From the NCBI GenBank assembly GCA_964610395.1, contig CAZSXP010000002.1, forward strand, positions 10,192 to 74,191: a DNA stretch of 64,000 nt. Reading direction: 5' to 3'. The notes under the pieces are model-generated. The model had not been told where the DNA came from and ran no database searches. It saw only the letters and a program-made list of their open reading frames with translations. The DNA is from an uncultured Gammaproteobacteria bacterium. GTDB lineage: Bacteria; Patescibacteriota; Microgenomatia; UBA8517. Made by a program: the position numbers and the translations under genes. This document shows positions 9,529 through 30,976 of the stretch, piece after piece. How positions within the stretch are numbered: position 1 is the stretch's first letter; the number at the start of each line of letters is the position of its first letter.

Positions 9529-9545
9529 AGATCTATTATATCAGA

Positions 9546-17734: not shown

Positions 17735-19265
17735 TTGTTCTCACTCTATATTGAAGTGCTTCTGCTACATGATTTGGATGTATTTTTTTCGAATCGGCAA
17801 GATCCGCAATTGTTTGACTGACTTTTATAAGTCTAAAATAAGTTCTGGCTGATAAATTGTAAGTATTAACTGCCTGCTTAAGCAGCAGTAAAGCATCTGG
17901 CGTTATATCTACAAATTTTTTAATATGTTTATTTTTCATATTTGAATTTGTATAAATATTTAAACCCTTAAATCTTTTATTTTGAATTTCTCTTGCCTTT
18001 ATTACCTGTTCTCGTATCTGTTTTGAGTTGTTAACTCTTCTTTCTTCTTTATTATTTATTAATTTGTTAATGTCGACGGCTGGTACATTTATGTGTAAAT
18101 CAATTCTATCCATCAGTGGACCCGACAGTTTACTTTGGTATTTCATAATCATACGAGGTGTACATTTGCATTCCTTTTTTGGGTCACCCAAGTATCCACA
18201 AGGGCAAGGATTAGCGGCAGCAATTAACATAAAACTAGCAGGAAAATTAACAGATCCTGCTATTCTTGTAATAGAAACTTCCCCATCTTCCATGGGTTGC
18301 CTTAATGCTTCAAGTGTTGACCTTGGAAATTCTGGAAATTCATCTAAAAACAAAACACCATTATGGGCAAGTGAAATTTCCCCTGGGTGTGGGTTTGTTC
18401 CTCCCCCAATTAACCCAATTCTACTAGTTGTATGGTGTGCAGTTCTAAATGGTCTTACTCTCACAAGTCCTTCACCTGCAGGGATTAAACCAGCTAGTGA
18501 AAATATTTTAGTAACTTCCAGTGCTTCTTCCTCATTAAGTGGCGGTAAAATGCCAGCTGAGGCCCTTGCAAGCATTGTTTTGCCGGCACCAGGAGATCCC
18601 ATCATAAAAATGTTATGTCCACCGGCTGCGGCAATAGTCATTGCTCTTTTTGCTGATTCTTGACCTATTATTTCATTAAAATCAAATTCGATTTGAGGTT
18701 CCTCAAATCGTCCCTCCGAAGCCTTGGCGGAGGAGGACATTTTCTTAATCTCTTTAACTCCATTTAAATGAGCAATTAATTCTAATAAAGATTTAACAGG
18801 ATAAACATTTATTCCAGATAAAACAGCAGCTTCGTTGGCCGAATCAAATGGCACAAATAAATTTTTAATTTTTAGAGCTTTTGCGGCCAGACCTAATAAA
18901 AACACACCCTTGGTGTGGCGGAGTCCTCCATCAAGTGATAGTTCACCATAAAAAAATGACTTTTCGGAAGGTAACTTCACATTTCCAAGTGAAGCTAAGA
19001 TTCCAATTGCAATTGGTAAATCATAAAGCGATCCTTCTTTTGGAATATCAGCAGGAGCAAGATTAACTACAATTTTTGAATTTGGAATATCGATATCAGA
19101 ATTAATTAAAGCAGTTTTTACTCTTTCTTTTGCCTCTTCTATTGATTTATTAGGAAGTCCTATTATAGAAAATCCAGGAAAACCTTTTTTAAAGACATTA
19201 ACCTCAACCTCTATTAAATTTGCTTCTAATCCAAAATGACTAGCAGATAGAATTTTAGTTAACAC
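17727..19265 (-). CDS. comM: YifB/ComM family Mg-chelatase-like AAA+ ATPase
   Basis: N-terminal ChlI-like domain, Walker A MMGSPGAGKTMLA, Walker B VLFLDEFPEF, C-terminal Mg-chelatase domain. Confidence 0.8.
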   Translation of the reverse strand: MLTKILSASHFGLEANLIEVEVNVFKKGFPGFSIIGLPNKSIEEAKERVKTALINSDIDIPNSKIVVNLAPADIPKEGSLYDLPIAIGILASLGNVKLPSEKSFFYGELSLDGGLRHTKGVFLLGLAAKALKIKNLFVPFDSANEAAVLSGINVYPVKSLLELIAHLNGVKEIKKMSSSAKASEGRFEEPQIEFDFNEIIGQESAKRAMTIAAAGGHNIFMMGSPGAGKTMLARASAGILPPLNEEEALEVTKIFSLAGLIPAGEGLVRVRPFRTAHHTTSRIGLIGGGTNPHPGEISLAHNGVLFLDEFPEFPRSTLEALRQPMEDGEVSITRIAGSVNFPASFMLIAAANPCPCGYLGDPKKECKCTPRMIMKYQSKLSGPLMDRIDLHINVPAVDINKLINNKEERRVNNSKQIREQVIKAREIQNKRFKGLNIYTNSNMKNKHIKKFVDITPDALLLLKQAVNTYNLSARTYFRLIKVSQTIADLADSKKIHPNHVAEALQYRVRTND

Positions 19266-19326
19266 TTTGATTTTAGTATGCTACTAAAAAAGTTCCTAAT
19301 CAATATGCACTAGGAACTTGACATAG

Positions 19327-19357
19327 TATACAGTACACAGTAAACTGTATACTGTAT
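19327..19357 (+). promoter_or_regulatory. nested palindromic operator-like site abutting the start codon of the PRT-domain regulator gene
   Basis: TATACAGTACACAGTAAACTGTATACTGTATA with ACAGT-AA-ACTGT core and flanking TACAGTA/TACTGTA inverted repeats. Confidence 0.3.
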
Positions 19358-20338
19358 ATGGATACACGCACAAAAATATTCGAATTTATAAGAGCAAACG
19401 GCAAAGCTAGATCTGAAGACATTAGGCGTGAGTTTCACCTAAACAGATCAATTATTCACAGACATTTACTAAGATTGACTTTGGAAAATAAAGTTATCAA
19501 ATCAGGTAAACCACCACTTGTGTTTTACATACCTAACGAAAATGTTGAGGCCAAAGACAAAATGGTTAATAATAAAATTTCTGAGTTCCTTCAAAAAAAC
19601 TATTTGTACATCTCCCCGTCTGGTCAAATGTTATATGGCCAAGAAGGTTTTTTGAGTTGGGTAACCAATACAAATCAACAAGAACATTTAGAGAAGTTGA
19701 TTGTCGAATATTTTAAAATTAAAAAGGCTGTAAACAAGCATTTTAATAAAATTGGGCTAATTGAAGCAAAAAAAAAGATTAAAAAAACTTTTTCTAGGAA
19801 TTACCTTGATAATATATACTTTGCTGATTTTTATTCTTTACCTAAATTTGGAAAAACTATATTAGGACAAAAGGTCTTACACTCAAAACAAGCCCAACTT
19901 GAAGACATAATTAACGAGATCGCAAGTGAGATAAAAAACAGAGTGTTAGATCTGATCACAAAAGAAAAAATTGAAGCAATTGCTTTTATTCCACCAACAA
20001 TACCAAGAAAAATACAATTTTTGAAAGAAATTGAAAAAAACTTAAATTTAAAGTTACCAACGATCAAATTAGTAAAATCATATTCTGGCCAAATTCCAAT
20101 TGCACAAAAAACTCTTTCAAAACTTGAAGAGCGTATAAAAAACGCAAAACAATCAATATTTATTAAAGACATTAGTATAAATTACGAAAGAATATTAATT
20201 ATTGATGATGCAATAGGTTCTGGAGCGACATTAAATGAAGTTGCATCAAAAATTAAACAACTCAACCCAAAAGCAAAAGTTTTTGGGTTTGCAATTGTCG
20301 GCAGCTTCAAAGGTTTTGATGTAATCAGTGAAGTATAA
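19358..20338 (+). CDS. winged-helix plus phosphoribosyltransferase-domain protein (PurR-like or ComF-like regulator)
   Basis: N-terminal wHTH-like segment (RSEDIRREFHLNRSIIHRHLLRL) and C-terminal PRT motif ILIIDDAIGSGATL. Confidence 0.4.
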   Translation: MDTRTKIFEFIRANGKARSEDIRREFHLNRSIIHRHLLRLTLENKVIKSGKPPLVFYIPNENVEAKDKMVNNKISEFLQKNYLYISPSGQMLYGQEGFLSWVTNTNQQEHLEKLIVEYFKIKKAVNKHFNKIGLIEAKKKIKKTFSRNYLDNIYFADFYSLPKFGKTILGQKVLHSKQAQLEDIINEIASEIKNRVLDLITKEKIEAIAFIPPTIPRKIQFLKEIEKNLNLKLPTIKLVKSYSGQIPIAQKTLSKLEERIKNAKQSIFIKDISINYERILIIDDAIGSGATLNEVASKIKQLNPKAKVFGFAIVGSFKGFDVISEV

Positions 20339-20504
20339 TATGCGTTTTGTTAAGGTCAGACCTTAATAGAATTGCATTCGAAGGTCTGACCTTGCAAGAA
20401 GTTTAATAACTTTACTTAATTTTCTCCTCCCATTCGAACTTGGAAGGCCGTGGCTAACGCCAATTGTAGAATAATTATACCATTATTTCTGATATACTAA
20501 TTTC

Positions 20505-20951
20505 ATGCCTGCCAAAGTAAACAAAGTCCATGTTAAAGATTTCGATAAGTGGATTGAGAAGAAAAAGGAAATAAACAATAAAATTACGGCTCCACCCCAA
20601 TTTAACGAAAGAGATATTTGGTGGACATCAATTGGCGTAAATGTTGGTTTTGAGGAGGATGGCAAGAATGATATATTTATACGTCCTGTTTTGGTAATTA
20701 AAAAATTTAACAGAGAAATGTTTTTAGGCGTTCCGTTAAGCACCAAGTTAAAAGATAACAAATATTACGTTCAAATCTCAGTCAAAGACGAAATTGTATC
20801 TGCAATGACATCGCAAATCAGAGTTTTTAGTAGTAAACGCATTTGGTACAAATTAGCTGTAATTGATGACGGAGATTTTTTAAAAGTTAATGAGGAGATA
20901 TCAAAATTCTTTATTTTACCCTTCCTGCCTAAGCAAGAAGGTCGTGGCTAA
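20505..20951 (+). CDS. MazF/PemK-like toxin-family protein, copy 1
   Basis: DIWWTSIGVNVGFEEDGKND..RPVLVI...GVPLSTK...SQIRVFSSKRI resembles the MazF/PemK fold. Paralog of 24678..25130. Flanked by 23-bp direct repeats. Confidence 0.5.
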   Translation: MPAKVNKVHVKDFDKWIEKKKEINNKITAPPQFNERDIWWTSIGVNVGFEEDGKNDIFIRPVLVIKKFNREMFLGVPLSTKLKDNKYYVQISVKDEIVSAMTSQIRVFSSKRIWYKLAVIDDGDFLKVNEEISKFFILPFLPKQEGRG

Positions 20952-20981
20952 CGCCAATTTGTCTTATGTTACAATAATTAT

Positions 20982-22649
20982 ATGAAGTTGTCAAACTTAA
21001 CTAAAAAAATCAGTTTAATTCTTCTCTCTTCTTTATTAATTTTTAATTCAGTAATGGCTACGCCATTAGCTGCCCTCGCCGCCGATGAAGCCCCAAGCAC
21101 TTGGTACAACCAAGGTTTTACTGATTGGTATGCAAAAGTCTACGGTGACGAATCCCCCCCATCTGAAATTTTTGGAGAAAGATACACTGCGGCACAAGTC
21201 CAATGGATAATATATAGTCTTTTTGCTTTTCCTATAAATTTCCTTGGAAGCAAAGTTCAGGGCGCAGTTTCATGTCTATACGCATTTGGTCCAGGAAGTG
21301 TTTTTGATAAAGCTGAATGTATTACTCAAACAATGGAAGCTGTCAAAGATGCGTTTGAAGTATTAAAAATAAGTACCAGTATAGCTTATATTGATAATGG
21401 TCCACAGAATCTTGGTCAAGCAATCTTTTTTAACTATCAAAACAGACCGGTCTCAGGTGTAAGATATTTAAGTGATACATTATCAAGTCTAAACATAATA
21501 AAAACCGCAAATGCTCAAGGTTTTGGATACACGACTGCAATTGATGGCTTAAAAAATTACTGGCAAGGATTTAGAGATATTGCTTATGCCCTATCGGTAC
21601 TCGTAGTAATAGTTTTTGCTTTCATGATAATGTTCAGGGTCAAACTATCGCCACAATTAGTTATCTCAGTTCAATCTGCACTGCCTAAAATTGTTGTAGC
21701 ATTAATACTTGCAACTTTCTCATATGCGATAGCTGGTTTTGTAATAGATTTATCATATGTAGTTGGAGGTTTACTTGCTTCATTAATGAGCCTTGCTGGA
21801 TTTTCAACAGCAAACGCTAATGGAAGTGCCTTTCAGGAAGCATTTAAAGTAATTATGCCAATTGAAAATACTCAAGCGTTGGGTGGTTTTTATATATTAT
21901 TATGGATGTTTGCATACACAACTGTATTCTTTTTTGCATCAGTATGGGCTTTGATCAGCACAATTTCTGGTTTATCTGTCTATGGTTTTTTAGCAGGTAT
22001 TTTAATGGTCTTGATGTCAATTTGGGTATTAATATTAATGCTTTGGTACACAATTAAAGTGCCATGGATATTAATAAAAAACTTAATTAGTTTGTTCGTG
22101 TCAATTGTTGTAGGACCATTACAAATAGTTATTGGTGCATTGATTCCTACTATTGGATTTGGAGTCTGGTTTAAAAAGATCATAGCAGAAGCACTTGTTT
22201 TTCCATTAACTGGTTTGTTTATGTTTTTAGCTATCAAGACACTTATGGCTTCTTTCTCTGCTAGCACTGGGCAACTTTTCCATACAATGGATGGCACGTT
22301 ATGGTCACCTCCTATTTTAGGATCATCAGAAGATATGGCAGGTATACTTTGGTTGGCGGTTAGTTTTATGTTTATAACAATGATTCCAAAAGCAGTAGAT
22401 ATTATGAAAATGCTTGTTATGGGTGCTAAATTCGACTTCGGCAGTGCAATCGGTGAAGCAATGGCGCCACTTAAGATGGCTGGTGGAGCATATTCCTCTA
22501 CAAAACAGCAACAATATGAGTTAACTGCTAAACAAACAGGAACCACTCCATGGGAAGCAGCTAAATTAATGGAAGCAACTGGCGATAAAAAGGAAAAGGC
22601 TAAATATTGGTTTACTCAGGCACTACAACGATTTTCAAATTCACACTAA
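20982..22649 (+). CDS. polytopic membrane protein, VirB6/TrbL-like T4SS channel candidate
   Basis: Signal peptide plus periplasmic N-domain, then at least 7 TM helices and a hydrophilic C-tail. Confidence 0.35.
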   Translation: MKLSNLTKKISLILLSSLLIFNSVMATPLAALAADEAPSTWYNQGFTDWYAKVYGDESPPSEIFGERYTAAQVQWIIYSLFAFPINFLGSKVQGAVSCLYAFGPGSVFDKAECITQTMEAVKDAFEVLKISTSIAYIDNGPQNLGQAIFFNYQNRPVSGVRYLSDTLSSLNIIKTANAQGFGYTTAIDGLKNYWQGFRDIAYALSVLVVIVFAFMIMFRVKLSPQLVISVQSALPKIVVALILATFSYAIAGFVIDLSYVVGGLLASLMSLAGFSTANANGSAFQEAFKVIMPIENTQALGGFYILLWMFAYTTVFFFASVWALISTISGLSVYGFLAGILMVLMSIWVLILMLWYTIKVPWILIKNLISLFVSIVVGPLQIVIGALIPTIGFGVWFKKIIAEALVFPLTGLFMFLAIKTLMASFSASTGQLFHTMDGTLWSPPILGSSEDMAGILWLAVSFMFITMIPKAVDIMKMLVMGAKFDFGSAIGEAMAPLKMAGGAYSSTKQQQYELTAKQTGTTPWEAAKLMEATGDKKEKAKYWFTQALQRFSNSH

Positions 22650-22670
22650 ATTTATGTTCTGGTTTGAATT

Positions 22671-24080
22671 TTAATCGTACCATTTTCTTCTGTCCCAAGG
22701 AAATAATAATTTGTCATAATCAAGATAATTGTTTCTTTTGGGTCCTAAGGCAACTAGAACAGTTGCTCTCATGCTTGGATTGTTAAATTTAGGTTCTCTA
22801 CTTTTTGAATCTATCCCTATCGAGGCATACAACATCCATCTTTTTACTGAATCGGCCTCCCTTAATTCAAATTTTGCTAATGCACCCAATGTGTTTTGAA
22901 CCCAATCCCTAATTGCGTCTACATCTCCCCATTTTATAGGAAGCTTGCCTTGTAATGTGTCAGATAATACTCCTGCCTTACCAATCTTTAATGCGTAATC
23001 AATCCACATTGAATCTGAAACATTATTCCATGGAATTTCATTCCCTGCCCTAAGATAGTCTATTAATTTTATCTTTTCACCTCCTTCGTTGGCAGTTACT
23101 TCTTCCCAAACAGATTTAACCAAATCTCTTGGATAACATTCAGGAACTATTATATCTTTGCCACCATTACTAACTCTCCAGTAATCTTTTGGGTTTTTGT
23201 TTTCATCAGCCATAAAATGAACATTTTCCACTGAAAGTTTTTTCCCATTGTTAGACTCGACCGCCATGTTATATGCCCATTCTCCAAATTTTCCATATAA
23301 TAATACCTCTGACCCCTCTTTACTAAAAGTTCCAAGTAAAACATCCATAGGGTTCATTGCAAATTTAATAGGAATATTTACAAGATCATTCATACATTCA
23401 GAAGGTCGAATTCTACCCATGTCGTTGTATTTGCTATCTAAACTCTCAAAAGTATTACCAAGATATAATAAAGTAAAGGCTATTTGCTCTGCTTCACGAG
23501 CTTTTAAGTTAAGGGTTTCTTTGTTTTCTGTTAATTTACCTCGTTGTTTATATCCTTTTAAAACATCTTCCTTTATATCATTACGAATATTTTCTCTACA
23601 CTTTAGAACTTGTTCTCTACTTTTTGCTGTTCTTAAAGAAAAACTTTCTTCTTCGTTGGTTTTAGAATTTTTCCTAGTTCCCATAATTTCATCTGTGTCG
23701 TATATTTTTATATATCGTTCAAGTGCACTTCTAACTCCTGGAACCTCATAAAGTTTTTTAACCTCTGGTGTTTGTAATCCTCCCCAGCCTTCATATTTTG
23801 AAAGAACTTCAAGTGTTGGTGGGATTGCTCTGGTTTTTTTGAAATTAGCCGCATTTGTAAATTCGATTACAATATTGTGAATTTCTCTTTCATCCCTCGT
23901 CATTTCTACATAATATACTGGAGCGGTTTCTACATTAATTGGTTGTATTGGTTTATTAAACCATTCTTGATCCTTTAAAAAAGATTGGTACTTTTCATCT
24001 GTTGATAATCTGGGACCTTGAATAGCGTCCCTTAGTGTACTTACATCAATTATGCCTCTCTGCCCATTTGCTTCTGCCAT
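22671..24080 (-). CDS. hypothetical protein (469 aa), no recognisable family
   Basis: Soluble, no TM. Carries the shared leader GGTAAAATACAACC-ATG-GCA-GAA. Confidence 0.4.
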   Translation of the reverse strand: MAEANGQRGIIDVSTLRDAIQGPRLSTDEKYQSFLKDQEWFNKPIQPINVETAPVYYVEMTRDEREIHNIVIEFTNAANFKKTRAIPPTLEVLSKYEGWGGLQTPEVKKLYEVPGVRSALERYIKIYDTDEIMGTRKNSKTNEEESFSLRTAKSREQVLKCRENIRNDIKEDVLKGYKQRGKLTENKETLNLKAREAEQIAFTLLYLGNTFESLDSKYNDMGRIRPSECMNDLVNIPIKFAMNPMDVLLGTFSKEGSEVLLYGKFGEWAYNMAVESNNGKKLSVENVHFMADENKNPKDYWRVSNGGKDIIVPECYPRDLVKSVWEEVTANEGGEKIKLIDYLRAGNEIPWNNVSDSMWIDYALKIGKAGVLSDTLQGKLPIKWGDVDAIRDWVQNTLGALAKFELREADSVKRWMLYASIGIDSKSREPKFNNPSMRATVLVALGPKRNNYLDYDKLLFPWDRRKWYD

Positions 24081-24125
24081 GGTTGTATTTTACCATTTTT
24101 TAAATAAAATGTTTTAAAAAATAAA

Positions 24126-24160
24126 AAGACCACTCATTTTTAACTACTTTGAGTGGTCTT
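24126..24160 (-). terminator. rho-independent terminator downstream of the Zn-ribbon gene
   Basis: 10-bp stem AGACCACTCA/TGAGTGGTCT followed on the minus strand by a T-run. Confidence 0.5.
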
Positions 24161-24178
24161 TAGACTAACAGCAACTTA

Positions 24179-24517
24179 TTACATTTTCTCAGCACATCTT
24201 TGGCAAATTCCTTTATAGATATGTTCCGCACATGTCCAATTCCGACAATTGACACATTGGTAAAGATCTTTCGGTTTAGACCAATTGTCACCATCTTCAT
24301 GGTAAGTGTCTAAACCCATTCGAAGCTCAATAGACTCCCTCATAGGTTCTCGGGCGGGTTTGTCGCAGATGTGACACTTGAACTTTCTACCAAGTTCTTG
24401 GACTTTTACCACTCTTTCTCTACGAGCGGACTCAAGAAATTCTTTTTTGCTTTTTTCCACTTCAGCCTCTCGGGCTTTTTCTTCCTCATCAATCTTTTTC
24501 TTCCAATCTTTTGTCAT
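24179..24517 (-). CDS. small K/E-rich protein with C-terminal Cys-rich zinc-ribbon
   Basis: CHIC...CVNC...CAEH...CQRC. Own SD-type RBS (AAGGAGG). Confidence 0.45.
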   Translation of the reverse strand: MTKDWKKKIDEEEKAREAEVEKSKKEFLESARRERVVKVQELGRKFKCHICDKPAREPMRESIELRMGLDTYHEDGDNWSKPKDLYQCVNCRNWTCAEHIYKGICQRCAEKM

Positions 24518-24677
24518 GGCACACCTCCTTAGTGTGTATTACATAAATTTTTACCGAGAAATGTCAAGTTGCAAGTGAATACTAACACAAAAAGGCAATT
24601 ACTTCAAGACTATAGGTATTTGGGGTTGGGGATTGACTTTTAGGGCAAAATAGATATACTAATAAGTACAAATTGCC

Positions 24678-25130
24678 TTAATTGGCACCCGAGAGCCCCG
24701 CAAGGGGCTCGTTTTTTGTCTCTTCTGTTGATATTAATTTTAATATCATTTTTTCTACTTCTCCAAACTGCTCTTTATTAAGATTCCCCATTTTTCTAAT
24801 CAATCGTTTTGAACTTAATATTCTAAGTTGTGACAGTATAACTGTTGACTTTCTATCTTTAAAATCAAAGGTAAAATAAAATTTTCCTTCTTTTACTTTT
24901 GAAGTTAGTGGAACACCCCAGAACATTCCTTTGTTAAACTTTCTAAAAATTAAAATTGGTCTTTCAAAATTTGTATTTTTTCCATCTATTTCATATCCGA
25001 CATTCACACCAACTGAACACCACCAAATTTCCTGTTCATGAAAAAACTTTTCTACACCCACACTATCAATCTGTGATTTTAATTTGTGCCAATTTTTGTA
25101 ATCTTTGACATACTTTGAAGCTTCTGTCAT
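24678..25130 (-). CDS. MazF/PemK-like toxin-family protein, copy 2
   Basis: Paralog of 20505..20951 (EIWWCSVGVNVGYEIDGKN..RPILIF...GVPLTSK...SQLRILSSKRL). C-terminal 12 codons are encoded by a hairpin. Confidence 0.5.
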   Translation of the reverse strand: MTEASKYVKDYKNWHKLKSQIDSVGVEKFFHEQEIWWCSVGVNVGYEIDGKNTNFERPILIFRKFNKGMFWGVPLTSKVKEGKFYFTFDFKDRKSTVILSQLRILSSKRLIRKMGNLNKEQFGEVEKMILKLISTEETKNEPLAGLSGAN

Positions 25131-25218
25131 GGTTGTATTTTACCTTAAATTAGTACAGAGAGAATGCATCACTTCGTGGGCAAAGTACCTAGTACTTAGT
25201 ATTGGTGGGATCAAAAAA

Positions 25219-25602
25219 CTATTCAAAATCTTTGATTTTAGCAAGAAGACTTTTGACAAGTGGGGGGAAATCTTTAATATCTTTATAAATTGACCTTACT
25301 TCGTCCTCTTTGTATGTATGTGTTGAAATATTTCTATGTTCTAAAAATTTAAACCAAACAACTGGATCATCTATTATCCCTATCCTTGCGGCTTCTCTAA
25401 TTACAGTTCTAATACCATAGGCGTCAACAACTTTATCTCTCAAAATAGCTTGCATAGTTTTCCATGACAGCTCAAAAGTAAATTCAAAGCGTTGGATTGT
25501 TGCGTCTTGGTTTATAATTTCTGGTGGTAACAACAATGCTTCGCCCAACCTTTCTACTGCCCTAGCTAAGTCTTTTATCAATTCTTGTGTTTTTTCCATC
25601 AA
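25219..25602 (-). CDS. hepT: HepT-like HEPN toxin (HI0074 nucleotidyltransferase substrate-binding family)
   Basis: HI0074-family pattern (...ATIQRFEFTFELSWKTMQ...) immediately downstream of the MntA-type NTase, overlapping by 4 nt. Confidence 0.55.
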   Translation of the reverse strand: MMEKTQELIKDLARAVERLGEALLLPPEIINQDATIQRFEFTFELSWKTMQAILRDKVVDAYGIRTVIREAARIGIIDDPVVWFKFLEHRNISTHTYKEDEVRSIYKDIKDFPPLVKSLLAKIKDFE

Positions 25603-25889
25603 TTTAAATAATAAACCTTTTTCATTGCAATTTCTTGAAATCTTTTAGATACTTTTGAGAAATCAACGACGTCAACCTTAAATGGTAAGTCAGAATTCTC
25701 AAATTCATCCTCCAGGTCAATTTTTGACATAATTGGAAGTTCTGATTTTGGTTCTACCCCTAAATCAATATCACTAAATTTCAAGTTATTCCCAATCGCT
25801 CGTGAGCCAAAAATAAATACCCTTGCACTTTTTGGATCAATATGTTTAAAAACAATCTTTTTAAATTCATCCAAATTAAAATCTGCCAT
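25599..25889 (-). CDS. mntA: MntA-like minimal nucleotidyltransferase antitoxin
   Basis: GSxxxG...SDIDL minimal NTase motif (IFGSRAIGNNLKFSDIDLGV). Confidence 0.6.
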   Translation of the reverse strand: MADFNLDEFKKIVFKHIDPKSARVFIFGSRAIGNNLKFSDIDLGVEPKSELPIMSKIDLEDEFENSDLPFKVDVVDFSKVSKRFQEIAMKKVYYLN

Positions 25890-25942
25890 AGTTGTATATT
25901 ACCTTAAATTAGTGCAGAGTACAAAGTACCTAGTACTTAGTA

Positions 25943-26269
25943 TTAGGAATAAGACAAAAATCTGATATCCAATCTACTATCCAAAGCCTCTGCAAGTTTT
26001 TGAAGGAAATTTACAGTTGGACTGATATTCCCCTTTTCTAATCTCGAAATTGCAGATTGAGTTGTACCTAGTTTTTTGGCAAGTTCTTTTTGAGAAAGAT
26101 CCTTCTTTCTTCTAACATCAATCATTGCCTGAAGCATTGCAAACTCAGGCTGTTGTCGTTCAAACTCTCTTCGTAAAGAAGAATTGTTTTTTAACACCCT
26201 TTTCTCCCAAACCAAGAAATCTTCATGTTGTCTTTTCTCAGGGGGAATATTTAAAACTTTTTTATTCAT
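25943..26269 (-). CDS. higA: HigA-like XRE-family HTH antitoxin
   Basis: HTH LSQKELAKKLGTTQSAISRLEKG, downstream of a HigB-like ORF. Confidence 0.6.
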   Translation of the reverse strand: MNKKVLNIPPEKRQHEDFLVWEKRVLKNNSSLRREFERQQPEFAMLQAMIDVRRKKDLSQKELAKKLGTTQSAISRLEKGNISPTVNFLQKLAEALDSRLDIRFLSYS

Positions 26270-26284
26270 ATATCGTATATGCTA

Positions 26285-26551
26285 TATTATTTCTTTTGCT
26301 CTGTCAATTGCTATTTTTAATTCTTTTGATGGAGTTTTTTGAGTTTTCTTTTTAAATACATGAAGCAAATAATAGGAATCTTTTACTTTTGTATAAAATA
26401 TTCGCAATGGATCTCTTCCTGTTACTCGCAATTCATATAAATTTTTGAATAGTTTTTTTGATTGTGGAGGTTTAAGAAATGGACCATTATCGATTAGTAA
26501 ATGTACTAATTTGTCAAAAATTATTTTTGTGAAAAGGATCCAATAGTTGCA
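26285..26551 (-). pseudogene. higB: HigB/RelE-family (Gp49-like) toxin ORF lacking any ATG/GTG/TTG start
   Basis: Manual translation ...FDKLVHLLIDNGPFLKPPQSKKLFKNLYELRVTGRDPLRIFYTKVKDSYYLLHVFKKKTQKTPSKELKIAIDRAKEII*. The open frame begins immediately after the stop of the upstream AbiEii gene. Confidence 0.45.
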
Positions 26552-27163
26552 CTAACCTAGTTTTACATTCTTCATAAAATATGTTTTTAAATCACCCCAA
26601 TTAAAATCTACTAACATATTTGGGTCTACATCATTTTCAGCATCATCGAAATAAATTAAGGACTTCTTTATCATTATTTCTCTTTCTTCAAAATTACCAA
26701 ACTTTTGATCATAGAATTTATATAAATTATCTAAACCAAATTTTTGAGCCAAGAAATAAATATCAACCAAATCACGTTTAGTACCTCGAGAGATTACGGT
26801 GTCTAGTTTTATGGCAGCCAAATCTCCAAGCGAGGCTAATTTTATATTTTCAAACGGTATTAAATCTTTTATGAGTGGATATTTATAGTAAAAAAGAGAA
26901 AACTTTATATTATTTATATCACCAATTATTGTTTGCCAATCCTTACTGAAAAGTTCTAAATTATAACTTTTCTCTAATTTTTGAATCCATTGATTTTCAT
27001 TAAACTCATGTTTTGTAAAAAAATCTAAATCTATAGATTTTCTGTGTCCAATTTGTAAAGATATTGCTGTGCCACCAGCTAAATATGTATCCAATGGCAG
27101 ACTATCATTATTAAATGAATTTAATAATTTGTGAGTTTCCTCAAGAATTGTATTAGTATACAT
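26552..27163 (-). CDS. AbiEii/AbiGii-family nucleotidyltransferase toxin
   Basis: LAGGTAISLQIGHRKSIDLDFF motif typical of AbiEii/DUF1814. Confidence 0.6.
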   Translation of the reverse strand: MYTNTILEETHKLLNSFNNDSLPLDTYLAGGTAISLQIGHRKSIDLDFFTKHEFNENQWIQKLEKSYNLELFSKDWQTIIGDINNIKFSLFYYKYPLIKDLIPFENIKLASLGDLAAIKLDTVISRGTKRDLVDIYFLAQKFGLDNLYKFYDQKFGNFEEREIMIKKSLIYFDDAENDVDPNMLVDFNWGDLKTYFMKNVKLG

Positions 27164-27377
27164 TTTGCCAAAAATTTTTAGACTTTAGTGATAATTTAGT
27201 TGTTTTTATTGTGTCTAGTATTATTTTTCTATCAAAATTTTTATTGATCCAATTTATTGCTTTCATATTTCCCATTTCTAATATCCTATTAATAAAATAT
27301 TTACTTTTTTTATTTATATCAGCTTCTTTTGTGTCTATGTCCCAAAAATATTTATGGAGTGATTTTGGTAATATCAT
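27153..27377 (-). CDS. small protein upstream of AbiEii (putative cognate antitoxin/partner)
   Basis: 74 aa with KSLHKYFWDIDTKE...SLKSKNFW, a pattern recurrent in small ORFs preceding AbiEii-like NTases. Overlaps the AbiEii start. Confidence 0.35.
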   Translation of the reverse strand: MILPKSLHKYFWDIDTKEADINKKSKYFINRILEMGNMKAINWINKNFDRKIILDTIKTTKLSLKSKNFWQNVY

Positions 27378-27459
27378 ATTGTCTATATTATACCATTTTT
27401 AGGTTGTGAAAAGAACATTATAGTTGCACCAAAACGTTCACATAGTACTCTTAAAGTAG

Positions 27460-28494: not shown

Positions 28495-29195
28495 ATGATT
28501 ATAAATTGAAATTCAGCTCCGCTATAAAAATTAAAAATTTTGTATCAAAAATTCCTTACTTTGGTACACCTGATGTTCCTTTAACCTCTACAACACAAAA
28601 CGCTCTTCCAATTGCAGATATTGTTGACGATGTTGTTTTATACAAGGATGGGGGAGCAGCAATTGTCCTTGAAACTTCATCATTAAACTTTGGTCTTCTC
28701 TCTGAAAAAGAACAGGGTGCTGTTGTTGCAGCATATGCTGCGCTTATTAATTCTTTGTCTTTTTCAATTCAAATTATGGTTAAAACACAAAGAAAAGATA
28801 TTACTGGTTATATTAAATTCTTTGACGAAGCAAGCAAAAAAATAACTAATCCAAAACTAGCTGCAATTACTGATGATTACAGACATTTTATAACTGAATC
28901 AATCAAGAAAAAGACTGTTTTAGGGAAAAGATTTTTCATAGTTATTCCTTTTAATCAACTTGAACTTGGCGTAGCAAAGTCAGCCCAATCTATAATTAAA
29001 AGGGGGCCTCTTCCTTTTCCTAAAGATTATGTTGTTAAAAAAGCAAAGGTTACTCTTTTCCCCAAAAGGGATCATCTAATAAGACAGGCGGGTCGACTTG
29101 GTTTAAAATTAAAACAATTAAGTACACAACAATTAATTAATCTCTATTACGAAGTAAATAATCCTGAGCCACCAGCAGTAAAGAAAGACATATGA
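28491..29195 (+). CDS. hypothetical T4SS-associated protein, possibly the split-off N-terminal domain of VirB4
   Basis: Soluble 234 aa overlapping the VirB4-like ATPase start by 4 nt (ATGA). The ATPase ORF is shorter than typical VirB4. Confidence 0.3.
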   Translation: MNDYKLKFSSAIKIKNFVSKIPYFGTPDVPLTSTTQNALPIADIVDDVVLYKDGGAAIVLETSSLNFGLLSEKEQGAVVAAYAALINSLSFSIQIMVKTQRKDITGYIKFFDEASKKITNPKLAAITDDYRHFITESIKKKTVLGKRFFIVIPFNQLELGVAKSAQSIIKRGPLPFPKDYVVKKAKVTLFPKRDHLIRQAGRLGLKLKQLSTQQLINLYYEVNNPEPPAVKKDI

Positions 29196-30976
29196 CAAAC
29201 AATAAACCAATAATTACCAATCCAAACTTGTCTATCTCAAGTGGAGAAATGCTATTACATGATGCTATTGCGTCAGATAACATTGAAATTGATTTTGATT
29301 TTATCAAAGTAAATAATGTTTATTTTAGAACTATCTTTGTAGCAGGATATCCAAGGTTTGTTGCACCTGGATGGTTAGAATCCGTTGTTAATTTCAATTC
29401 ATCTCTTGATATGAGTTTTTATATATATCCAGTTGCAGGAAAATCTGTTCTTGATGATCTCAGACGTAAAATCGCAGAAATGGAGGCAGAACTTTCAACT
29501 GATATTCAAAGGGGTAAGATTGTTGATCCTGTAACCACTGCCAAACTTGAAGACGCGAGATCTCTACAAGAACAACTTGTTAAAGGAATTGAAAGATATT
29601 ATGAATTTTCATTCTACATTACAATCCCAGCCAATTCTTTAGATGAATTAAATAACATCACAAGACAAATACAGTCAACACTTGGCTCACTTTTAATCGT
29701 TGCAAAAAATGCATCGCTTGATCAAAAGGAAGGATTTTTGTCAACTGCTCCATATGGTAGAGACAGCCTTTCAATTACAAGAAACATGGACACAACCTCA
29801 GTGGCTACAACTTTTCCATTTACATCAGCAGAACTTTCTTCAGATACTGGTGTCTTGTATGGAATAAATTCACAAAACGAATCTTTTATTATTTTTGACA
29901 GATTCTCTTTGGAAAATGCAAACTTCACTATATTCGCCACTTCTGGAGCTGGTAAAAGTTACTTTGTTAAAACTGAAGCGGTTAGATCTTTGATGATCGG
30001 CACAGAAGTTATCATCCTAGACCCTGAAGCAGAATATAAAGCCCTTTGTGACGCTGTTGGCGGTCAGTATATATCTTTCTCGTATAATAGCCCTGCAAAA
30101 ATCAATCCATTTGATTTAGCCCAAATTAGAGAAGAAGGGGAGAACCAATTAGGTCTTAAGATTTTATCGCTTCATGCATTAATGAAAGTCATCATGGGAC
30201 AAATTAGCCCAACACAAGAAGCCATGCTTGATAGGGCACTTATCTTAACTTACAAAGCAAAGGGAATTACAAACGACCCAACAACCCAAACAAAAGAACC
30301 ACCTTTAATGGAAGATCTTTATAAAACATTGATTGGAATGGAAGTTCCTGAAGCACTTGATCTTGCGGCTCGTATTGAAAAATTTATCAGAGGTTCTTTC
30401 CAAGGAATATTTGACAAACAAACAAATGTTGACCTTAATAATCCATTTACAGTTTTTTCTGTTAAAGATATTCAGGATGCAATCCGTCCTATTGTCATGT
30501 TTATGATTCTTGACTACATTTGGACAAGGGTTAAAAGAGATATTAAAAGAAGAATATTAATTGTTGAGGAAGCATGGCAAATGATGAAATATCCAGACAC
30601 TGCTCAGTTTTTATGGTCTGTCGTTAAGAGAGCAAGGAAATACTATCTAGGACTTACTACAATCACTCAGGACGTTGAAGACTTCCTAAGTCAAGACATC
30701 GGGAAGGCAATTGTTACAAACTCTGCTTTACGGTTGCTTTTGAAACAATCTCCAACCGCCATAGATAAATTAGGAGAGATATTTTATTTATCGCAAGGGG
30801 AGAAGCAACTTCTAATGGCTGCAAATGTAGGAGAGGGAATTTTCTTTGCAGGACCACACCATGCACCAATTAGGATTGTTGCCTCAGAAAAAGAACATGC
30901 TTTGATTAATACCAAACCACAAGACAATCCAGCACCAACAATGCCAAACACTAAGGCGTGGAATAGACAGGATTAA
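29192..30976 (+). CDS. virB4: VirB4/TrbE/CagE-family type IV secretion ATPase
   Basis: Walker A FATSGAGKSYFVKTEAV, Walker B RILIVEEAWQMM, downstream GLTTITQDVEDF; overall VirB4 C-terminal ATPase-domain layout. Confidence 0.7.
   Translation: MTNNKPIITNPNLSISSGEMLLHDAIASDNIEIDFDFIKVNNVYFRTIFVAGYPRFVAPGWLESVVNFNSSLDMSFYIYPVAGKSVLDDLRRKIAEMEAELSTDIQRGKIVDPVTTAKLEDARSLQEQLVKGIERYYEFSFYITIPANSLDELNNITRQIQSTLGSLLIVAKNASLDQKEGFLSTAPYGRDSLSITRNMDTTSVATTFPFTSAELSSDTGVLYGINSQNESFIIFDRFSLENANFTIFATSGAGKSYFVKTEAVRSLMIGTEVIILDPEAEYKALCDAVGGQYISFSYNSPAKINPFDLAQIREEGENQLGLKILSLHALMKVIMGQISPTQEAMLDRALILTYKAKGITNDPTTQTKEPPLMEDLYKTLIGMEVPEALDLAARIEKFIRGSFQGIFDKQTNVDLNNPFTVFSVKDIQDAIRPIVMFMILDYIWTRVKRDIKRRILIVEEAWQMMKYPDTAQFLWSVVKRARKYYLGLTTITQDVEDFLSQDIGKAIVTNSALRLLLKQSPTAIDKLGEIFYLSQGEKQLLMAANVGEGIFFAGPHHAPIRIVASEKEHALINTKPQDNPAPTMPNTKAWNRQD

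What the first reader, a model, noticed from the sequence alone, without database searches (positions are those of the whole stretch)
20340..27400. Cassette-like accessory region: inverted MazF-like paralogs, MntA/HepT, HigA with start-less HigB, AbiEii and partner, with duplicated leaders
Seven kilobases hold four toxin-antitoxin-type modules, an orphan 469-aa protein, a Zn-ribbon protein and a VirB6-like gene. The two MazF-like paralogs face each other and neither has an obvious antitoxin ORF of 60 aa or more nearby. Repeat structures (shared leaders, 23-bp direct repeats) suggest cassettes shuffled by site-specific or homologous recombination. This is a likely defence and addiction island.
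Basis: partly seen in the sequence, partly recalled or inferred. Interest (0 to 1): 0.6.

Follow-up and report, generated by a model that had tools for sequence, protein, structure and literature searches.

The report
Toxin island hiding a small RNA
A variable patch of toxin-antitoxin genes sits inside the type IV secretion gene cluster of a Woesebacteria (candidate phyla radiation, CPR) genome, and its "antitoxin-less" MazF-like toxin turns out to be paired with an undescribed ~50-nt antisense RNA gene that accompanies this toxin family across the CPR.

Summary
Two PemK/MazF-like genes (42% identical, convergent), MntA/HepT-like, HigA with a 5'-truncated HigB, AbiEii+DUF6922, and the repeated leaders and repeats are all at the stated coordinates.

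Comparison with 80 related loci shows a conserved, oriC-proximal T4SS-like cluster: VirB6 candidate, large variable protein, PrgI-like, TraC-like, VirB4. It has two slots that hold different small modules in different genomes, or none.

Junction scars explain the oddities:
- AbiE replaced HigB codons 1 to ~27.
- The "orphan" 469-aa protein is the C-terminal ~60% of the large cluster protein, fused to a copied mazF-2 leader.
- The repeats flanking mazF-1 are remnants of a lost tandem copy.

No integrase or attC was found. Homologous or illegitimate recombination fits better than site-specific cassettes.

The main new result concerns the missing antitoxin. A canonical promoter, a two-hairpin RNA and an intrinsic terminator lie antisense to the mazF-2 3' end (24633-24719, +). 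A covariance model finds this RNA antisense to 63 of 80 diverse family members, and almost nowhere in 1.3 Mb of control loci. Rfam has no match. It is probably an RNA antitoxin or regulator, which remains untested. The mazF-1 copy is only a divergent, non-significant variant.

The parts
20415..20479 (-). Orphan remnant: the last ~14 codons of a lost mazF-1 paralogue (LIFSSHSNLEGRG*), a variant copy of the antisense RNA element (P1 GGCGUUAGCC intact), and a copy of the promoter of the 555-aa gene.
   Evidence: Direct repeat D3. Sequence read. Tandem mazF-1 units in L024 and L017 show the origin.
20505..20951 (+). mazF-1, a 148-aa PemK/MazF-like protein.
   Evidence: PF02452, E 2.6e-9. 42% identical to MazF-2. 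Orthologues sit in the same slot in L017 (94%) and L024 (two copies). L010 has an internally deleted remnant.
20900..20995 (-). Divergent variant of the antisense RNA element at the mazF-1 3' end. It has a promoter-like TTGACA-17-TAACAT (20994-20966), then ACAAAUUGGC-GUUA-GCCAC and a 9-bp hairpin, with no U-run.
   Evidence: same two-hairpin fold, z -4.4. Promoter and hairpin are conserved in L017 and L024a/b, with compensatory changes. It is NOT significant with the covariance models (10 bits, E 8).
20982..22649 (+). 555-aa polytopic membrane protein, the VirB6 candidate of the T4SS-like cluster.
   Evidence: About 8 hydrophobic segments. Conserved upstream of the cluster in 35 or more loci. 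No Pfam or PDB-profile hit.
22671..24080 (-). 469-aa protein. It is the C-terminal ~60% of the large variable T4SS-cluster protein (526-1122 aa in relatives). Its promoter and first 4 codons copy the mazF-2 leader.
   Evidence: blastp to the L052 782-aa protein, residues 360-671, E 4e-21. hhalign gives 95%, E 2.7e-8, to columns 265-441 of 709. Leader copy.
24179..24517 (-). 112-aa Cys-rich (zinc-ribbon-like) protein with a Shine-Dalgarno site. It is not a conserved MazF partner.
   Evidence: No family hit. Homologues in L017, L045 and L052 occur without MazF. None in 90 MazF-centred loci.
24633..24660 (+). Promoter of the antisense small RNA (TTGACT-16 nt-TATACT).
   Evidence: The equivalent promoter is present in 60 of 71 family loci on the antisense strand, against 13 of 71 on the sense strand.
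24667..24719 (+). About 50-nt small-RNA gene antisense to the last 13 codons, the stop codon and 11 nt of 3' UTR of mazF-2. Sequence: 5' UACAAAU, P1 (UGCC/GGCA), CCGAG, P2 (GAGCCCC-GCAA-GGGGCUC), U6.
   Evidence: Covariance models R1 and R2 give 53.7 and 55.9 bits, E about 1e-15. It is the only significant hit in the window. Intrinsic terminator 24693-24720. Fold -21.6 kcal/mol, z -3.4. No Rfam match.
24678..25130 (-). mazF-2, a 150-aa PemK/MazF-like protein with an N-terminal helix extension.
   Evidence: PF02452, E 1.6e-10. AlphaFold pLDDT 81.6 and Foldseek top hits to MazF structures. The catalytic Arg and Thr/Ser align with B. subtilis MazF.
25123..25203 (-). mazF-2 promoter/leader. It holds the 23-bp repeat with the palindrome AAGTAC-TAG-GTACTT, an 18-nt insert, and a -10 TAAAAT 6 nt before the ATG.
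   Evidence: The L006 variant breaks exactly at 25184.
25219..25889 (-). MntA-like nucleotidyltransferase (25599-25889; GSX10DXD present) and HepT-like HI0074 protein (25219-25602; RX4HXY present).
   Evidence: Motifs read from the translations. Orthologous pairs in L024 and L052.
25882..25944 (-). mntA promoter/leader, the second copy of the 23-bp repeat plus leader (89% identical to the mazF-2 leader).
25943..26269 (-). HigA-like XRE/HTH_3 antitoxin or regulator.
   Evidence: 92% identical to the HigA of L018, where HigB is intact.
26282..26548 (-). HigB (Gp49/RelE-like) pseudogene lacking about 27 N-terminal codons and a start.
   Evidence: Profile positions 16-90 of 90. Alignment with the intact L018 and L027 genes.
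26552..27377 (-). DUF6922 (27153-27377) plus AbiEii-family nucleotidyltransferase (26552-27163). The module is inserted behind the former higB promoter and flanked by 29-nt repeats (26527-26555, 27404-27432).
   Evidence: A second DUF6922+AbiEii pair lies elsewhere in L024.

Best explanation
**Setting.** The window comes from a Woesebacteria/Microgenomatia (Patescibacteria) chromosome. Positions 20.3-27.4 kb are two variable slots inside a conserved, dnaA-proximal T4SS-like gene cluster.
- Slot A lies between a comF-like gene and the polytopic VirB6 candidate. It holds mazF-1 units.
- Slot B is the divergent promoter region between the large variable cluster protein and the prgI-like gene. It holds the Zn-ribbon gene, mazF-2, mntA-hepT, higA with truncated higB, and DUF6922-abiEii.

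**How the modules move.** Each module is a self-contained unit. It has a -10 box 6-9 nt before the start codon, so the mRNA is probably leaderless.
- Modules are gained, duplicated, truncated and lost by homologous or illegitimate recombination. This happens at shared promoter/leader sequences and at duplicated gene 5' ends.
- A site-specific recombinase does not appear to be involved.

**The MazF-like genes.**
- They belong to a large CPR family with no protein antitoxin.
- mazF-2, like most of the family, is paired with a convergent gene for a ~50-nt RNA that overlaps its 3' end. The RNA has a 5' ACAAAU tail, a short hairpin, a CCGAG linker and a GNRA-capped terminator hairpin.
- I infer that this RNA is the antitoxin or negative regulator. 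It could pair with the mazF mRNA 3' end (type I-like). Because its single-stranded sequence is conserved, it more likely binds the MazF-like RNase (type III-like).

**Shown versus inferred.**
- Shown: gene identities, locus variability, scars, and the sequence, structure, promoter, terminator and association of the RNA.
- Inferred: that the RNA is transcribed, that MazF is toxic, and that the RNA neutralises it.
For: **Core cluster and variability**
- 80 related loci were recovered.
- tblastn and ORF maps show the VirB6 candidate, then a large minus-strand protein, then PrgI-like, TraC-like and VirB4. In 8 loci nothing lies between the large protein and PrgI.
- In others the slot holds HicAB, DUF433/DUF5615, 23S_rRNA_IVP, CTP_transf, MntA/HepT or HigBA modules.
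- dnaN and dnaA lie at 34-37 kb, as PMC12102498 reports for Microgenomatia.

**Scars**
- HigB is truncated by the AbiE module.
- The 469-aa protein is a truncated large protein.
- mazF-1 units are interleaved with truncated copies of the 5' end of the VirB6-candidate gene in L017, L024 and L010.
- Variant contigs break at the repeats.

**MazF identity:**

**No protein partner**
- Homologues sit alone among housekeeping genes.
- There is no recurrent upstream ORF and no Zn112 homologue in 90 loci.

**The RNA**
- The window copy has a promoter and a terminator.
- The same architecture is seen in 11 of the 12 family members examined by eye.
- A promoter is found on the antisense strand in 60 of 71 loci, against 13 of 71 on the sense strand.
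- Model R1 gives 65 hits in 0.36 Mb of MazF-centred loci. It gives 3 hits in 1.32 Mb of control loci. Of those 3, one lies at the L022 mazF-2 orthologue, one at the deleted mazF-2 remnant in L024, and one is weak.
- Model R2 hits 63 of 80 metagenome loci, always antisense and within about 120 nt of the stop codon.
- P1 is 96% paired, with GC/UA covariation.
- G-U pairs outnumber A-C pairs 51 to 15, which favours the antisense strand.
- The hairpin covaries between the window and L010 while the encoded amino acids change.
- Where the toxin was deleted, the RNA and its promoter were kept (L024; L010).
Against: **Function is untested**
- No expression data exist. Transcription of the RNA, toxicity of the MazF-like proteins and neutralisation are all untested.
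- Keeping the RNA after toxin deletion rests on two or three cases.

**Weaknesses in the RNA evidence**
- The mazF-1 element is not a significant match to the covariance models (10 bits). It also lacks a U-run, so mazF-1 may be controlled differently or be decaying.
- The large alignments used for pair counts (A8, A9) were fitted to the model. The seed structure was drawn from the same sequences, which inflates the pairing statistics.
- P2 is a terminator hairpin, and covariation there is expected for any terminator.

**Weaknesses in the recombination evidence**
- The near-identical variant contigs (L002, L004, L006) have about 2x coverage, and their breakpoints lie at repeats. Some could be assembly chimeras.
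- A large serine recombinase does exist in the window, but about 16.5 kb from the island (2268-3869).
Confidence: 0.6

Rival explanations
1. The conserved element at the mazF 3' end is not an independent antisense RNA gene. It might act on the sense strand as an mRNA 3'-end stabiliser or processing site. Or it might act as DNA, for example as a recombination or attachment site that moves mazF cassettes. That would also explain the direct repeats flanking mazF-1.
For: - The element is physically part of the mazF transcription unit and often lies inside the ORF.
- Copies flank mazF-1 as direct repeats.
- The sense strand of the window copy also folds well (-20.6 kcal/mol, z -2.5).
Against: - A canonical -35/-10 promoter sits at a fixed distance on the antisense strand in 60 of 71 loci, against 13 of 71 on the sense strand.
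- The U-run follows the hairpin only on the antisense strand.
- G-U pairs outnumber A-C pairs 51 to 15 on the antisense strand.
- No recombinase is associated.
- The mazF-1 repeats are explained by tandem duplication of whole mazF-1 units carrying the 5' end of the VirB6-candidate gene.
Confidence: 0.12
2. The CPR MazF-like proteins are domesticated, non-toxic RNases with a housekeeping or RNA-processing role. They need no antitoxin. The small RNA would then be a substrate, guide or ordinary regulator, and the two genes are not addiction or defence modules.
For: - Family members sit singly inside housekeeping operons: after a T2SSF gene, and between rpe and tkt.
- The family is large: 652 clusters at E<=1e-30.
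- The conserved N-terminal helix is absent from canonical MazF.
- PADLOC does not recognise them.
Against: - The catalytic Arg and Thr/Ser and the MazF fold are kept.
- The genes are patchy, duplicated in tandem and repeatedly inactivated by internal deletion while the RNA is kept. This is behaviour typical of toxin genes.
- They co-locate with other toxin-antitoxin modules in a variable slot.
Confidence: 0.18
3. The region is an integron-like or other site-specific cassette array. The repeats would serve as recombination sites.
For: - Modules are flanked by short direct repeats.
- Content differs between relatives.
- A serine recombinase is present in the window.
Against: - There is no integrase within or beside the island. 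The recombinase is about 16.5 kb from the island and abuts the tmRNA gene, typical of a separate integrated element.
- The repeats are promoter/leader copies, gene-end remnants and promoter duplicates of differing sequence. They are not a common att or attC motif.
- Junctions truncate genes at non-homologous points.
Confidence: 0.04
4. A protein does neutralise MazF-2. It could be the downstream 112-aa zinc-ribbon protein (toxin-first order, as in MqsRA). Or it could be the family-specific N-terminal helix acting in cis (as in EzeT).
For: - Zn112 follows mazF-2 in all near-identical contigs.
- MqsA-type antitoxins bind zinc (my own knowledge).
- A conserved N-terminal helix exists at residues 11-23, with W14 invariant.
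- EzeT is a precedent (PMC4803016).
Against: - Zn112 homologues occur without MazF (L045, L052, L017). They are absent from L010 and from all 90 MazF-centred loci.
- The helix is only about 13 residues long, and nothing shows that it occludes the active site.
Confidence: 0.06

Closest known systems
Type II MazEF/PemIK toxin-antitoxin systems
   Same: The toxin has the MazF/PemK fold. It scores above the Pfam threshold, and the catalytic Arg and Thr/Ser align with B. subtilis MazF.
   Different: There is no MazE/PemI-type protein antitoxin gene next to either copy or next to family members. The family has an extra conserved N-terminal helix. A convergent small-RNA gene takes the antitoxin's place.
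Type I toxin-antitoxin systems with 3'-overlapping antisense RNAs (B. subtilis TxpA/RatA, BsrG/SR4; enzymatic type I toxins SymE, RalR)
   Same: A small RNA with its own promoter and terminator is transcribed convergently and overlaps the toxin mRNA 3' end. Details of the comparison systems come from my own knowledge.
   Different: The toxin is a 130-150-aa MazF-fold RNase, not a small hydrophobic peptide. The RNA's primary sequence and fold are conserved across distant homologues, which cis-antisense pairing alone does not require.
Type III toxin-antitoxin systems (ToxIN, CptIN, TenpIN, AbiQ/antiQ)
   Same: An endoribonuclease toxin with a Kid/MazF-related fold is paired with a structured RNA. 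Conserved single-stranded motifs would fit protein binding.
   Different: Type III antitoxins are tandem repeats upstream of the toxin on the same strand, processed by the toxin. Here the RNA is single-copy, downstream and on the opposite strand. The toxin is a Pfam PemK member, not ToxN/AbiQ.
Solitary MazF-mx of Myxococcus xanthus and EzeT (cis antitoxin)
   Same: The toxin-family gene has no adjacent cognate protein antitoxin (PMC4803016).
   Different: MazF-mx is reported to be neutralised by the distant transcription factor MrpC. EzeT is neutralised by its own N-terminal domain. Neither has an associated small RNA.
Patescibacteria chromosomal T4SS cluster (MPF-FATA-like; PMC12102498)
   Same: VirB4 and PrgI/VirB3-like genes lie near dnaA, with no relaxase nearby.
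   Different: That study found VirB6 homologues scarce in Microgenomatia. It does not describe toxin-antitoxin-filled variable slots inside the cluster. The 555-aa protein here is a syntenic VirB6 candidate with no HMM support.
Rfam pemK RNA motif (RF02913)
   Same: It is an RNA motif named for its association with pemK genes.
   Different: It did not match the window element at E<=10, nor six canonical instances at E<=1. From memory, it is a 5'-UTR cis-regulatory motif of Firmicutes.

Membership tests
MazF/PemK toxin (type II) | PemK/MazF sequence profile and SH3-like barrel fold | tested here: met
   PF02452 scores 37.7 and 41.6 bits against a cut-off of 23.1. AlphaFold pLDDT is 81.6. Foldseek top hits are S. 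aureus, B. subtilis, M. tuberculosis and E. coli MazF, probability 1.00.
MazF/PemK toxin (type II) | Catalytic Arg and Thr/Ser in the substrate loops | tested here: met
   Invariant R57 aligns with B. subtilis MazF R25. PLTSK aligns with the T48 region. The residue roles come from my own knowledge.
MazF/PemK toxin (type II) | Adjacent co-transcribed protein antitoxin (MazE/PemI) | tested here: not met
   No same-strand ORF of 20 aa or more upstream. No recurrent partner in the contexts of homologues.
MazF/PemK toxin (type II) | Sequence-specific endoribonuclease activity and growth arrest | not testable with these tools
   Needs expression and cleavage assays.
Type I TA (antisense RNA antitoxin) | Separate RNA gene antisense to the toxin mRNA | tested here: met
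   The promoter, the conserved RNA and the terminator lie on the opposite strand and overlap or abut the 3' end. This is an in silico result only.
Type I TA (antisense RNA antitoxin) | Small hydrophobic peptide toxin | tested here: not met
   The toxin is a 150-aa soluble MazF-fold protein.
Type III TA (ToxIN-like) | Tandem-repeat RNA upstream of the toxin, on the same strand | tested here: not met
   The RNA is single-copy, downstream and convergent. No tandem array was seen in the repeat scan.
Type III TA (ToxIN-like) | RNA binds and inhibits the toxin protein | not testable with these tools
   The conserved single-stranded ACAAAU and CCGAG motifs are only suggestive.
HepT/MntA (type VII) | MntA nucleotidyltransferase with GSX10DXD, and HepT with RX4HXY | tested here: met
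   GSRAIGNNLKFSDID and RNISTHTY are read in the translations. The motif definitions come from my own knowledge.
HepT/MntA (type VII) | Curated family HMMs above threshold | tested here: inconclusive
   PF08780 and TIGR01987 (HI0074) are above their cut-offs. PF01934 HepT and NCBIfam HepT/MntA are below theirs. The pair belongs to the HI0073/HI0074-like branch.
HigBA | Intact HigB (Gp49/RelE-like) upstream of HigA | tested here: not met
   HigB lacks profile positions 1-15 and a start codon. Intact in L018. HigA is intact.
AbiE (type IV TA / abortive infection) | AbiEii nucleotidyltransferase | tested here: met
   PF08843 scores 52 bits against a cut-off of 22.5. PADLOC AbiEii models also hit.
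AbiE (type IV TA / abortive infection) | AbiEi winged-helix antitoxin partner | tested here: not met
   The upstream gene is a 74-aa DUF6922 protein with no AbiEi hit at E<=0.1. The same pairing recurs in L024.
Integron / site-specific cassette array | Integrase next to the array, and a common attC-type site after each cassette | tested here: not met
   No recombinase in 9.5-39 kb. The boundary repeats are heterogeneous promoter or gene fragments.
VirB6 (T4SS channel subunit) | VirB6/TrbL or PrgH profile match | tested here: not met
   No Pfam or NCBIfam hit. A profile of 35 orthologues has no PDB-sequence hit at E<=1.
VirB6 (T4SS channel subunit) | Polytopic membrane protein encoded with VirB3/VirB4 | tested here: met
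   About 8 hydrophobic segments. Conserved synteny.
Rfam families (all 4227, including pemK RF02913) | Covariance-model match | tested here: not met

The most novel reading that the evidence does not exclude
The CPR MazF-like family has about 650 to 2000 clusters at 50% identity. Together with its convergent ~50-nt two-hairpin RNA, it may form a previously unrecognised toxin-antitoxin architecture: a type II-family RNase toxin controlled by a dedicated small RNA. That RNA would be conserved in sequence because it binds the toxin (type III-like logic), while being encoded antisense at the toxin's 3' end (type I-like layout). Its sense strand is even co-opted as the toxin's C-terminal tail in many members.
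Probability: 0.4. Interest if true: 0.85.

Novelty: new variant of a known kind. Interest (0 to 1): 0.72.

Why it matters
**Orphan toxins.** 'Orphan' MazF-like toxins are common in annotations of candidate-phyla-radiation genomes, and how they are controlled is unknown.
- A specific RNA partner with its own promoter and terminator would explain their apparent solitude.
- It would add an RNA-antitoxin branch to the best-studied toxin family.
- It would give annotators a covariance model to find these modules.
- The hypothesis can be tested directly with public metatranscriptomes or a two-plasmid assay in E. coli.

**Genome flux in reduced genomes.** The locus also shows how very small CPR genomes turn over accessory genes.
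- Modules pile up at promoter regions inside an essential-looking T4SS-like cluster next to oriC.
- They leave truncated genes that annotation reports as orphans.

**A VirB6 candidate.** The 555-aa protein is a candidate for the VirB6 that profile searches fail to find in Microgenomatia.

Tried and rejected
- **PADLOC** on the ten island proteins found only AbiEii, plus weak hits for the nucleotidyltransferase (MntA-like) and HTH (HigA-like) proteins. Neither MazF-like protein hit.
- **Rfam** found no family at the island or at the RNA element. I used gathering thresholds on the whole window, permissive E-values on the island, on 181 nt around the RNA, and on six canonical loci.
- **tRNA or tmRNA as an attachment site** inside the island: none.
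- **The 51-nt repeat as a structured or att site:** it is explained instead as a remnant of a mazF-1 3' end plus promoter.
- **The MazF-1 element as a member of the RNA family:** models R1 and R2 with filters off give 10 bits at most. I keep it only as a 'divergent variant by eye'.
- **The generic promoter scan** is not enriched over shuffles in the island (35 against 31.5). Only the promoter conserved across homologues is used as evidence.
- **Zn112 as antitoxin:** rejected because it does not co-occur with MazF.
The PDB profile search found nothing.
- **Literature:**
  - Searches for DUF6922, for a Patescibacteria MazF antitoxin and for a pemK RNA found nothing pertinent.
  - The supplements of the Weinberg 2017 paper are not held.
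- **The exact-match lookup** of the 469-aa protein returned only a 3-kb contig.

Full report
**1. What is there**

| Coordinates | Identity | Evidence |
|---|---|---|
| 20505-20951 (+) | MazF-1, PF02452 PemK | |
| 24678-25130 (-) | MazF-2, PF02452 PemK | |
| 25599-25889 (-) | small nucleotidyltransferase, MntA-like | |
| 25219-25602 (-) | HI0074/NTase_sub_bind protein, HepT-like | |
| 25943-26269 (-) | HTH_3 protein, HigA-like | |
| 26282-26548 (-) | Gp49/HigB fragment, profile positions 16-90 of 90, no start codon | |
| 26552-27163 (-) | AbiEii | |
| 27153-27377 (-) | 74-aa DUF6922 protein | |

- MazF-1 and MazF-2 are 42% identical and convergent.
- The MntA-like protein carries GSX10DXD and the HepT-like protein carries RX4HXY in the translations.
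- The 555-aa, 469-aa and 112-aa proteins have no family hit.
- PADLOC recognises only AbiEii.
- The repeats are real:
  - three copies of the leader against 0.03 expected;
  - an exact 23-bp repeat containing the palindrome AAGTAC-TAG-GTACTT;
  - a 51-nt repeat flanking mazF-1;
  - a 29-nt repeat flanking the AbiE module.

**2. Genomic setting**

- Homologues of MazF-2 are all from Patescibacteria. The closest named one is from Candidatus Woesebacteria.
- The left flank holds dprA, a UPF0102 (YraN-type) gene, comM and a comF-like gene.
- The right flank holds PrgI-like, TraC-like and VirB4-like genes and an 878-aa protein.
- dnaN, dnaA and yidC follow at 34-38 kb.
- This is the chromosomal, oriC-proximal T4SS-like cluster described for Patescibacteria (PMC12102498).

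**3. Comparative anatomy**

A scan with the PrgI-like protein returned 80 loci from Woesebacteria, Microgenomates and Shapirobacteria.

- tblastn and ORF maps define a conserved core:
  - the polytopic membrane protein homologous to the 555-aa protein (+);
  - a large, fast-evolving protein of 526-1122 aa (-), convergent with it;
  - then PrgI-like, TraC-like and VirB4 (+), divergent from the large protein.
- In eight loci nothing lies between the large protein and prgI.
- In the window and about ten other loci, that promoter region holds small modules of different kinds.
- A Pfam census of 75 such ORFs gave 23S_rRNA_IVP (7), CTP_transf_like (5), HicA/HicB (3 each), MntA-type (3), HepT-type (2), DUF433+DUF5615 (2), Gp49+HTH (2) and others.
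- In the closest well-assembled relative (L010), the slot holds two HicAB pairs, two cytidylyltransferase-like genes and the mazF-2 orthologue.

**4. Scars that explain the oddities**

(a) *HigB.*
- L018 carries an intact higB-higA pair directly next to prgI, and its HigA is 92% identical to the window's.
- The alignment shows that in the window the DUF6922-abiEii module sits behind the former higB promoter.
- It replaces higB codons 1 to ~27.
- The 29-nt repeat is a partial duplicate of that promoter region.

(b) *The 469-aa 'orphan'.*
- It aligns to residues 360-671 of the 782-aa large protein of L052 (E 4e-21).
- It aligns to columns 265-441 of 709 in a 26-member profile (hhalign 95%, E 2.7e-8).
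- It therefore lacks about 300 N-terminal residues.
- Its promoter and first four codons (GGTAAAATACAACCATGGCAGAAGC) match the mazF-2 leader at 24 of 25 positions.
- I read this as a deletion that fused a mazF-2-type leader to the interior of the large gene. This is an inference.

(c) *mazF-1.*
- In L017, L024 (two copies) and L010 (an internally deleted remnant), mazF-1 units alternate with truncated copies of the promoter and signal-peptide region of the VirB6-candidate gene.
- That pattern is the signature of tandem duplication or Campbell-type homologous recombination.
- Window positions 20415-20479 are the last 14 codons plus the downstream promoter of a lost copy. This accounts for the flanking 'direct repeat'.

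(d) *Variant contigs.*
- Contigs carrying a 100% identical MazF-2 diverge from the window at three points:
  - at 25184, inside the 23-bp repeat (L006, joined to a GATase gene);
  - at 24095, at the edge of the leader copy (L004, joined to a NYN gene);
  - at 26895 (L002).
- These contigs have low coverage, so I treat them as suggestive only.

(e) *Recombinases.*
- No recombinase lies in or beside the island.
- The only one in the window is a large serine recombinase abutting the tmRNA gene about 16.5 kb away.

**5. The leaders**

- Most island genes have a -10-like hexamer 6-9 nt before the start codon and no Shine-Dalgarno sequence.
- Window-wide, 34 of 67 ORFs show this pattern and only 3 have an SD-like motif. 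This count was not controlled for AT-richness.
- The 'shared leaders' are therefore promoters of probably leaderless mRNAs.
- The mazF-2 and mntA copies are nevertheless true paralogues. They share 23 exact bp plus 38 nt at 89% identity, separated by an 18-nt insertion.

**6. The MazF-like family**

- Its members are 125-165 aa long.
- They share a conserved N-terminal helix (residues 11-23, with W14 invariant) in front of the MazF barrel.
- Foldseek top hits are MazF structures.
- The catalytic Arg and Thr/Ser align with B. subtilis MazF.
- The family has 652 clusters at 50% identity with E<=1e-30, and 2049 with E<=1e-10.
- No protein partner was found:
  - Homologues sit alone after a T2SSF gene, between rpe and tkt, or near T4SS ATPases.
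  - In 80 further loci there is no recurrent upstream ORF and no Zn112 homologue.

**7. The antisense RNA**

*First sighting.*
- The generic promoter/terminator scan flagged two features on the strand opposite mazF-2:
  - a TTGACT-16-TATACT promoter at 24633-24660;
  - a hairpin with a U-run at 24693-24720.
- The L010 orthologue has TTGACT-16-TATAAT at the same place.
- Its hairpin is changed by compensatory substitutions (GAGCCCC/GGGGCUC becomes GACCUC/GAGGUC), while the encoded peptide changes from EPLAGL to DLLRGP.
- The same layout appeared in 11 of the 12 family members examined by eye, including distant ones.

*Wider sampling.* A metagenome scan with the family alignment gave 80 more loci at 42-56% identity.
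- Of 71 loci with enough flank, 60 have a -35/16-18/-10 promoter on the antisense strand. Only 13 have one on the sense strand.
- 51 also have the conserved AAAUGGC motif 3-14 nt downstream of the promoter.
- The consensus is 5' (U)ACAAAU, GGC(C)-UUCG/UUAG-(G)GCC, (U/C)CCGAG(A), a GC-rich stem with a GCAA or GAAA loop, then CGUUUUU. The length is about 50-65 nt.

*Covariance models.*
- A model built from a 23-sequence MAFFT seed (R1) finds one site in the window: 24667-24719 (+), 53.7 bits, E 3e-15.
- R1 gives 65 hits in 0.36 Mb of MazF-centred loci, all antisense to the MazF-like gene.
- R1 gives only three hits in 1.32 Mb of T4SS-centred loci:
  - one at the L022 mazF-2 orthologue;
  - one at L024 7408-7464;
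  - one weak hit.
- The refined model R2 hits 63 of 80 metagenome loci at E<=0.01. In 59 of them the RNA lies within -118 to +77 nt of the stop codon.
- Tandem mazF paralogues each have their own copy.

*Structure support.*
- P1 is 96% paired, with GC/UA exchange at its base. A8 is fitted to the model, so its counts lean towards the structure.
- G-U pairs outnumber A-C pairs 51 to 15. This places the structure on the antisense strand, in agreement with the promoter and the U-run.
- Rfam 15 has no match.

*Overprinting.* In many members the mazF ORF reads through the RNA gene. The 'conserved C-terminal tail' (RGPRVPNGN-like) is therefore at least partly a by-product of the nucleotide element.

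**8. Toxin loss with RNA retention**

- In L024 the mazF-2 orthologue is reduced to about 24 N-terminal codons fused to its last ~15 codons. The RNA (62 bits) and its promoter are intact.
- In L010 the mazF-1 orthologue is deleted in the same way, with its 3' element kept.
- Window 20415-20479 is a third such remnant.
- This is the decay pattern expected if the protein is harmful without the RNA. The number of cases is small.

**9. The mazF-1 element**

- The mazF-1 3' end (20900-20995, -) has a promoter-like TTGACA-17-TAACAT. This is conserved in L017 and in both L024 copies.
- It also has the ACAAAUUGGC-GUUA-GCC hairpin and a 9-bp second hairpin. That hairpin shows two compensatory changes between the window and L024b, and a G-U pair that exists only on the antisense strand.
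- However, it lacks the CCGAG linker and the U-run, and it scores only 10 bits.
- I report it as a divergent variant, not as a demonstrated member.

**10. Mechanism and confidence**

| Claim | Confidence |
|---|---|
| The island is a recombination-shaped, variable accumulation zone for toxin-antitoxin modules | ~0.9 |
| The mazF-2-associated element is a genuine, conserved small-RNA gene | ~0.85 |
| This RNA is the antitoxin or negative regulator of the MazF-like protein | ~0.5-0.6 |

- Whether the RNA acts by antisense pairing or by binding the protein is open.
- The conserved single-stranded sequence favours a trans partner such as the protein.
- Transcription of the RNA, toxicity of MazF and neutralisation are all untested.

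**11. Novelty**

- Toxin-antitoxin-rich variable islands are ordinary.
- A MazF-family toxin paired with a dedicated, conserved, convergent small RNA was not found in Rfam or in the paper library searched. I cannot exclude a description elsewhere.
- I rate it a new variant of a known kind.

Noticed in passing
window 1970-3869: A large serine recombinase gene (2268-3869, minus strand; Resolvase plus Zn_ribbon_recom) overlaps the 3' end of the tmRNA gene (1970-2341). The next ~8 kb has lower GC (0.28-0.33). This looks like an element integrated at the tmRNA gene, separate from the island.
   Followed up: partly
window 19325-19343, 25181-25203, 25911-25944, 52375-52425; L020, L021, L023, L027, L037 at about 9430-9570 and 9960-9987: Tandem heptads GTACTNN occur 20 times in the window against 1.8 expected. 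They lie in promoter regions, and in relatives they sit within 40 nt upstream of prgI and between slot modules. They may be a regulator binding site or a source of recombination microhomology.
   Followed up: partly
L018 11889-15392 (also L024, L028, L033): The VirB4 gene of several relatives is split in frame by an insert of about 550 codons at the P-loop. In L018 the insert matches Intein_splicing and LAGLIDADG_3, so it is an intein. The window's VirB4 (29192-30976) lacks it.
   Followed up: yes
window 20982-22649 and orthologues (alignment A6): A conserved polytopic membrane protein lies at the head of the T4SS-like cluster. It is a candidate for the VirB6 that profile searches report as scarce in Microgenomatia (PMC12102498). 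It has no HMM or PDB-profile support.
   Followed up: partly
window 52382-52418 versus 25144-25180: A 37-nt stretch (92% identical) of the mazF-2 leader, including the 18-nt insert CCCACGAAGTGATGCA, recurs inside the ORF 51800-52573 (weak Polbeta nucleotidyltransferase hit). Its origin is unexplained.
   Followed up: partly
whole window: Only 3 of 67 ORF-called genes have a Shine-Dalgarno-like motif, while 34 have a -10-like hexamer 4-9 nt before the start. This suggests mostly leaderless or SD-independent initiation. The count was not controlled for AT-richness.
   Followed up: partly
window 24179-24517; L017 8665-9045, L045 9442-9813, L052 7985-8359: The 112-aa Cys-rich protein recurs next to the large variable protein in relatives, independently of MazF. 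It may belong to the T4SS-like cluster rather than to a toxin-antitoxin module.
   Followed up: partly
window 16603-20338: The competence-type genes dprA, comM and a comF-like gene, together with a UPF0102 (YraN-type) gene, lie between the 846-aa cluster protein and the VirB6 candidate. In more distant relatives those two genes are adjacent.
   Followed up: no
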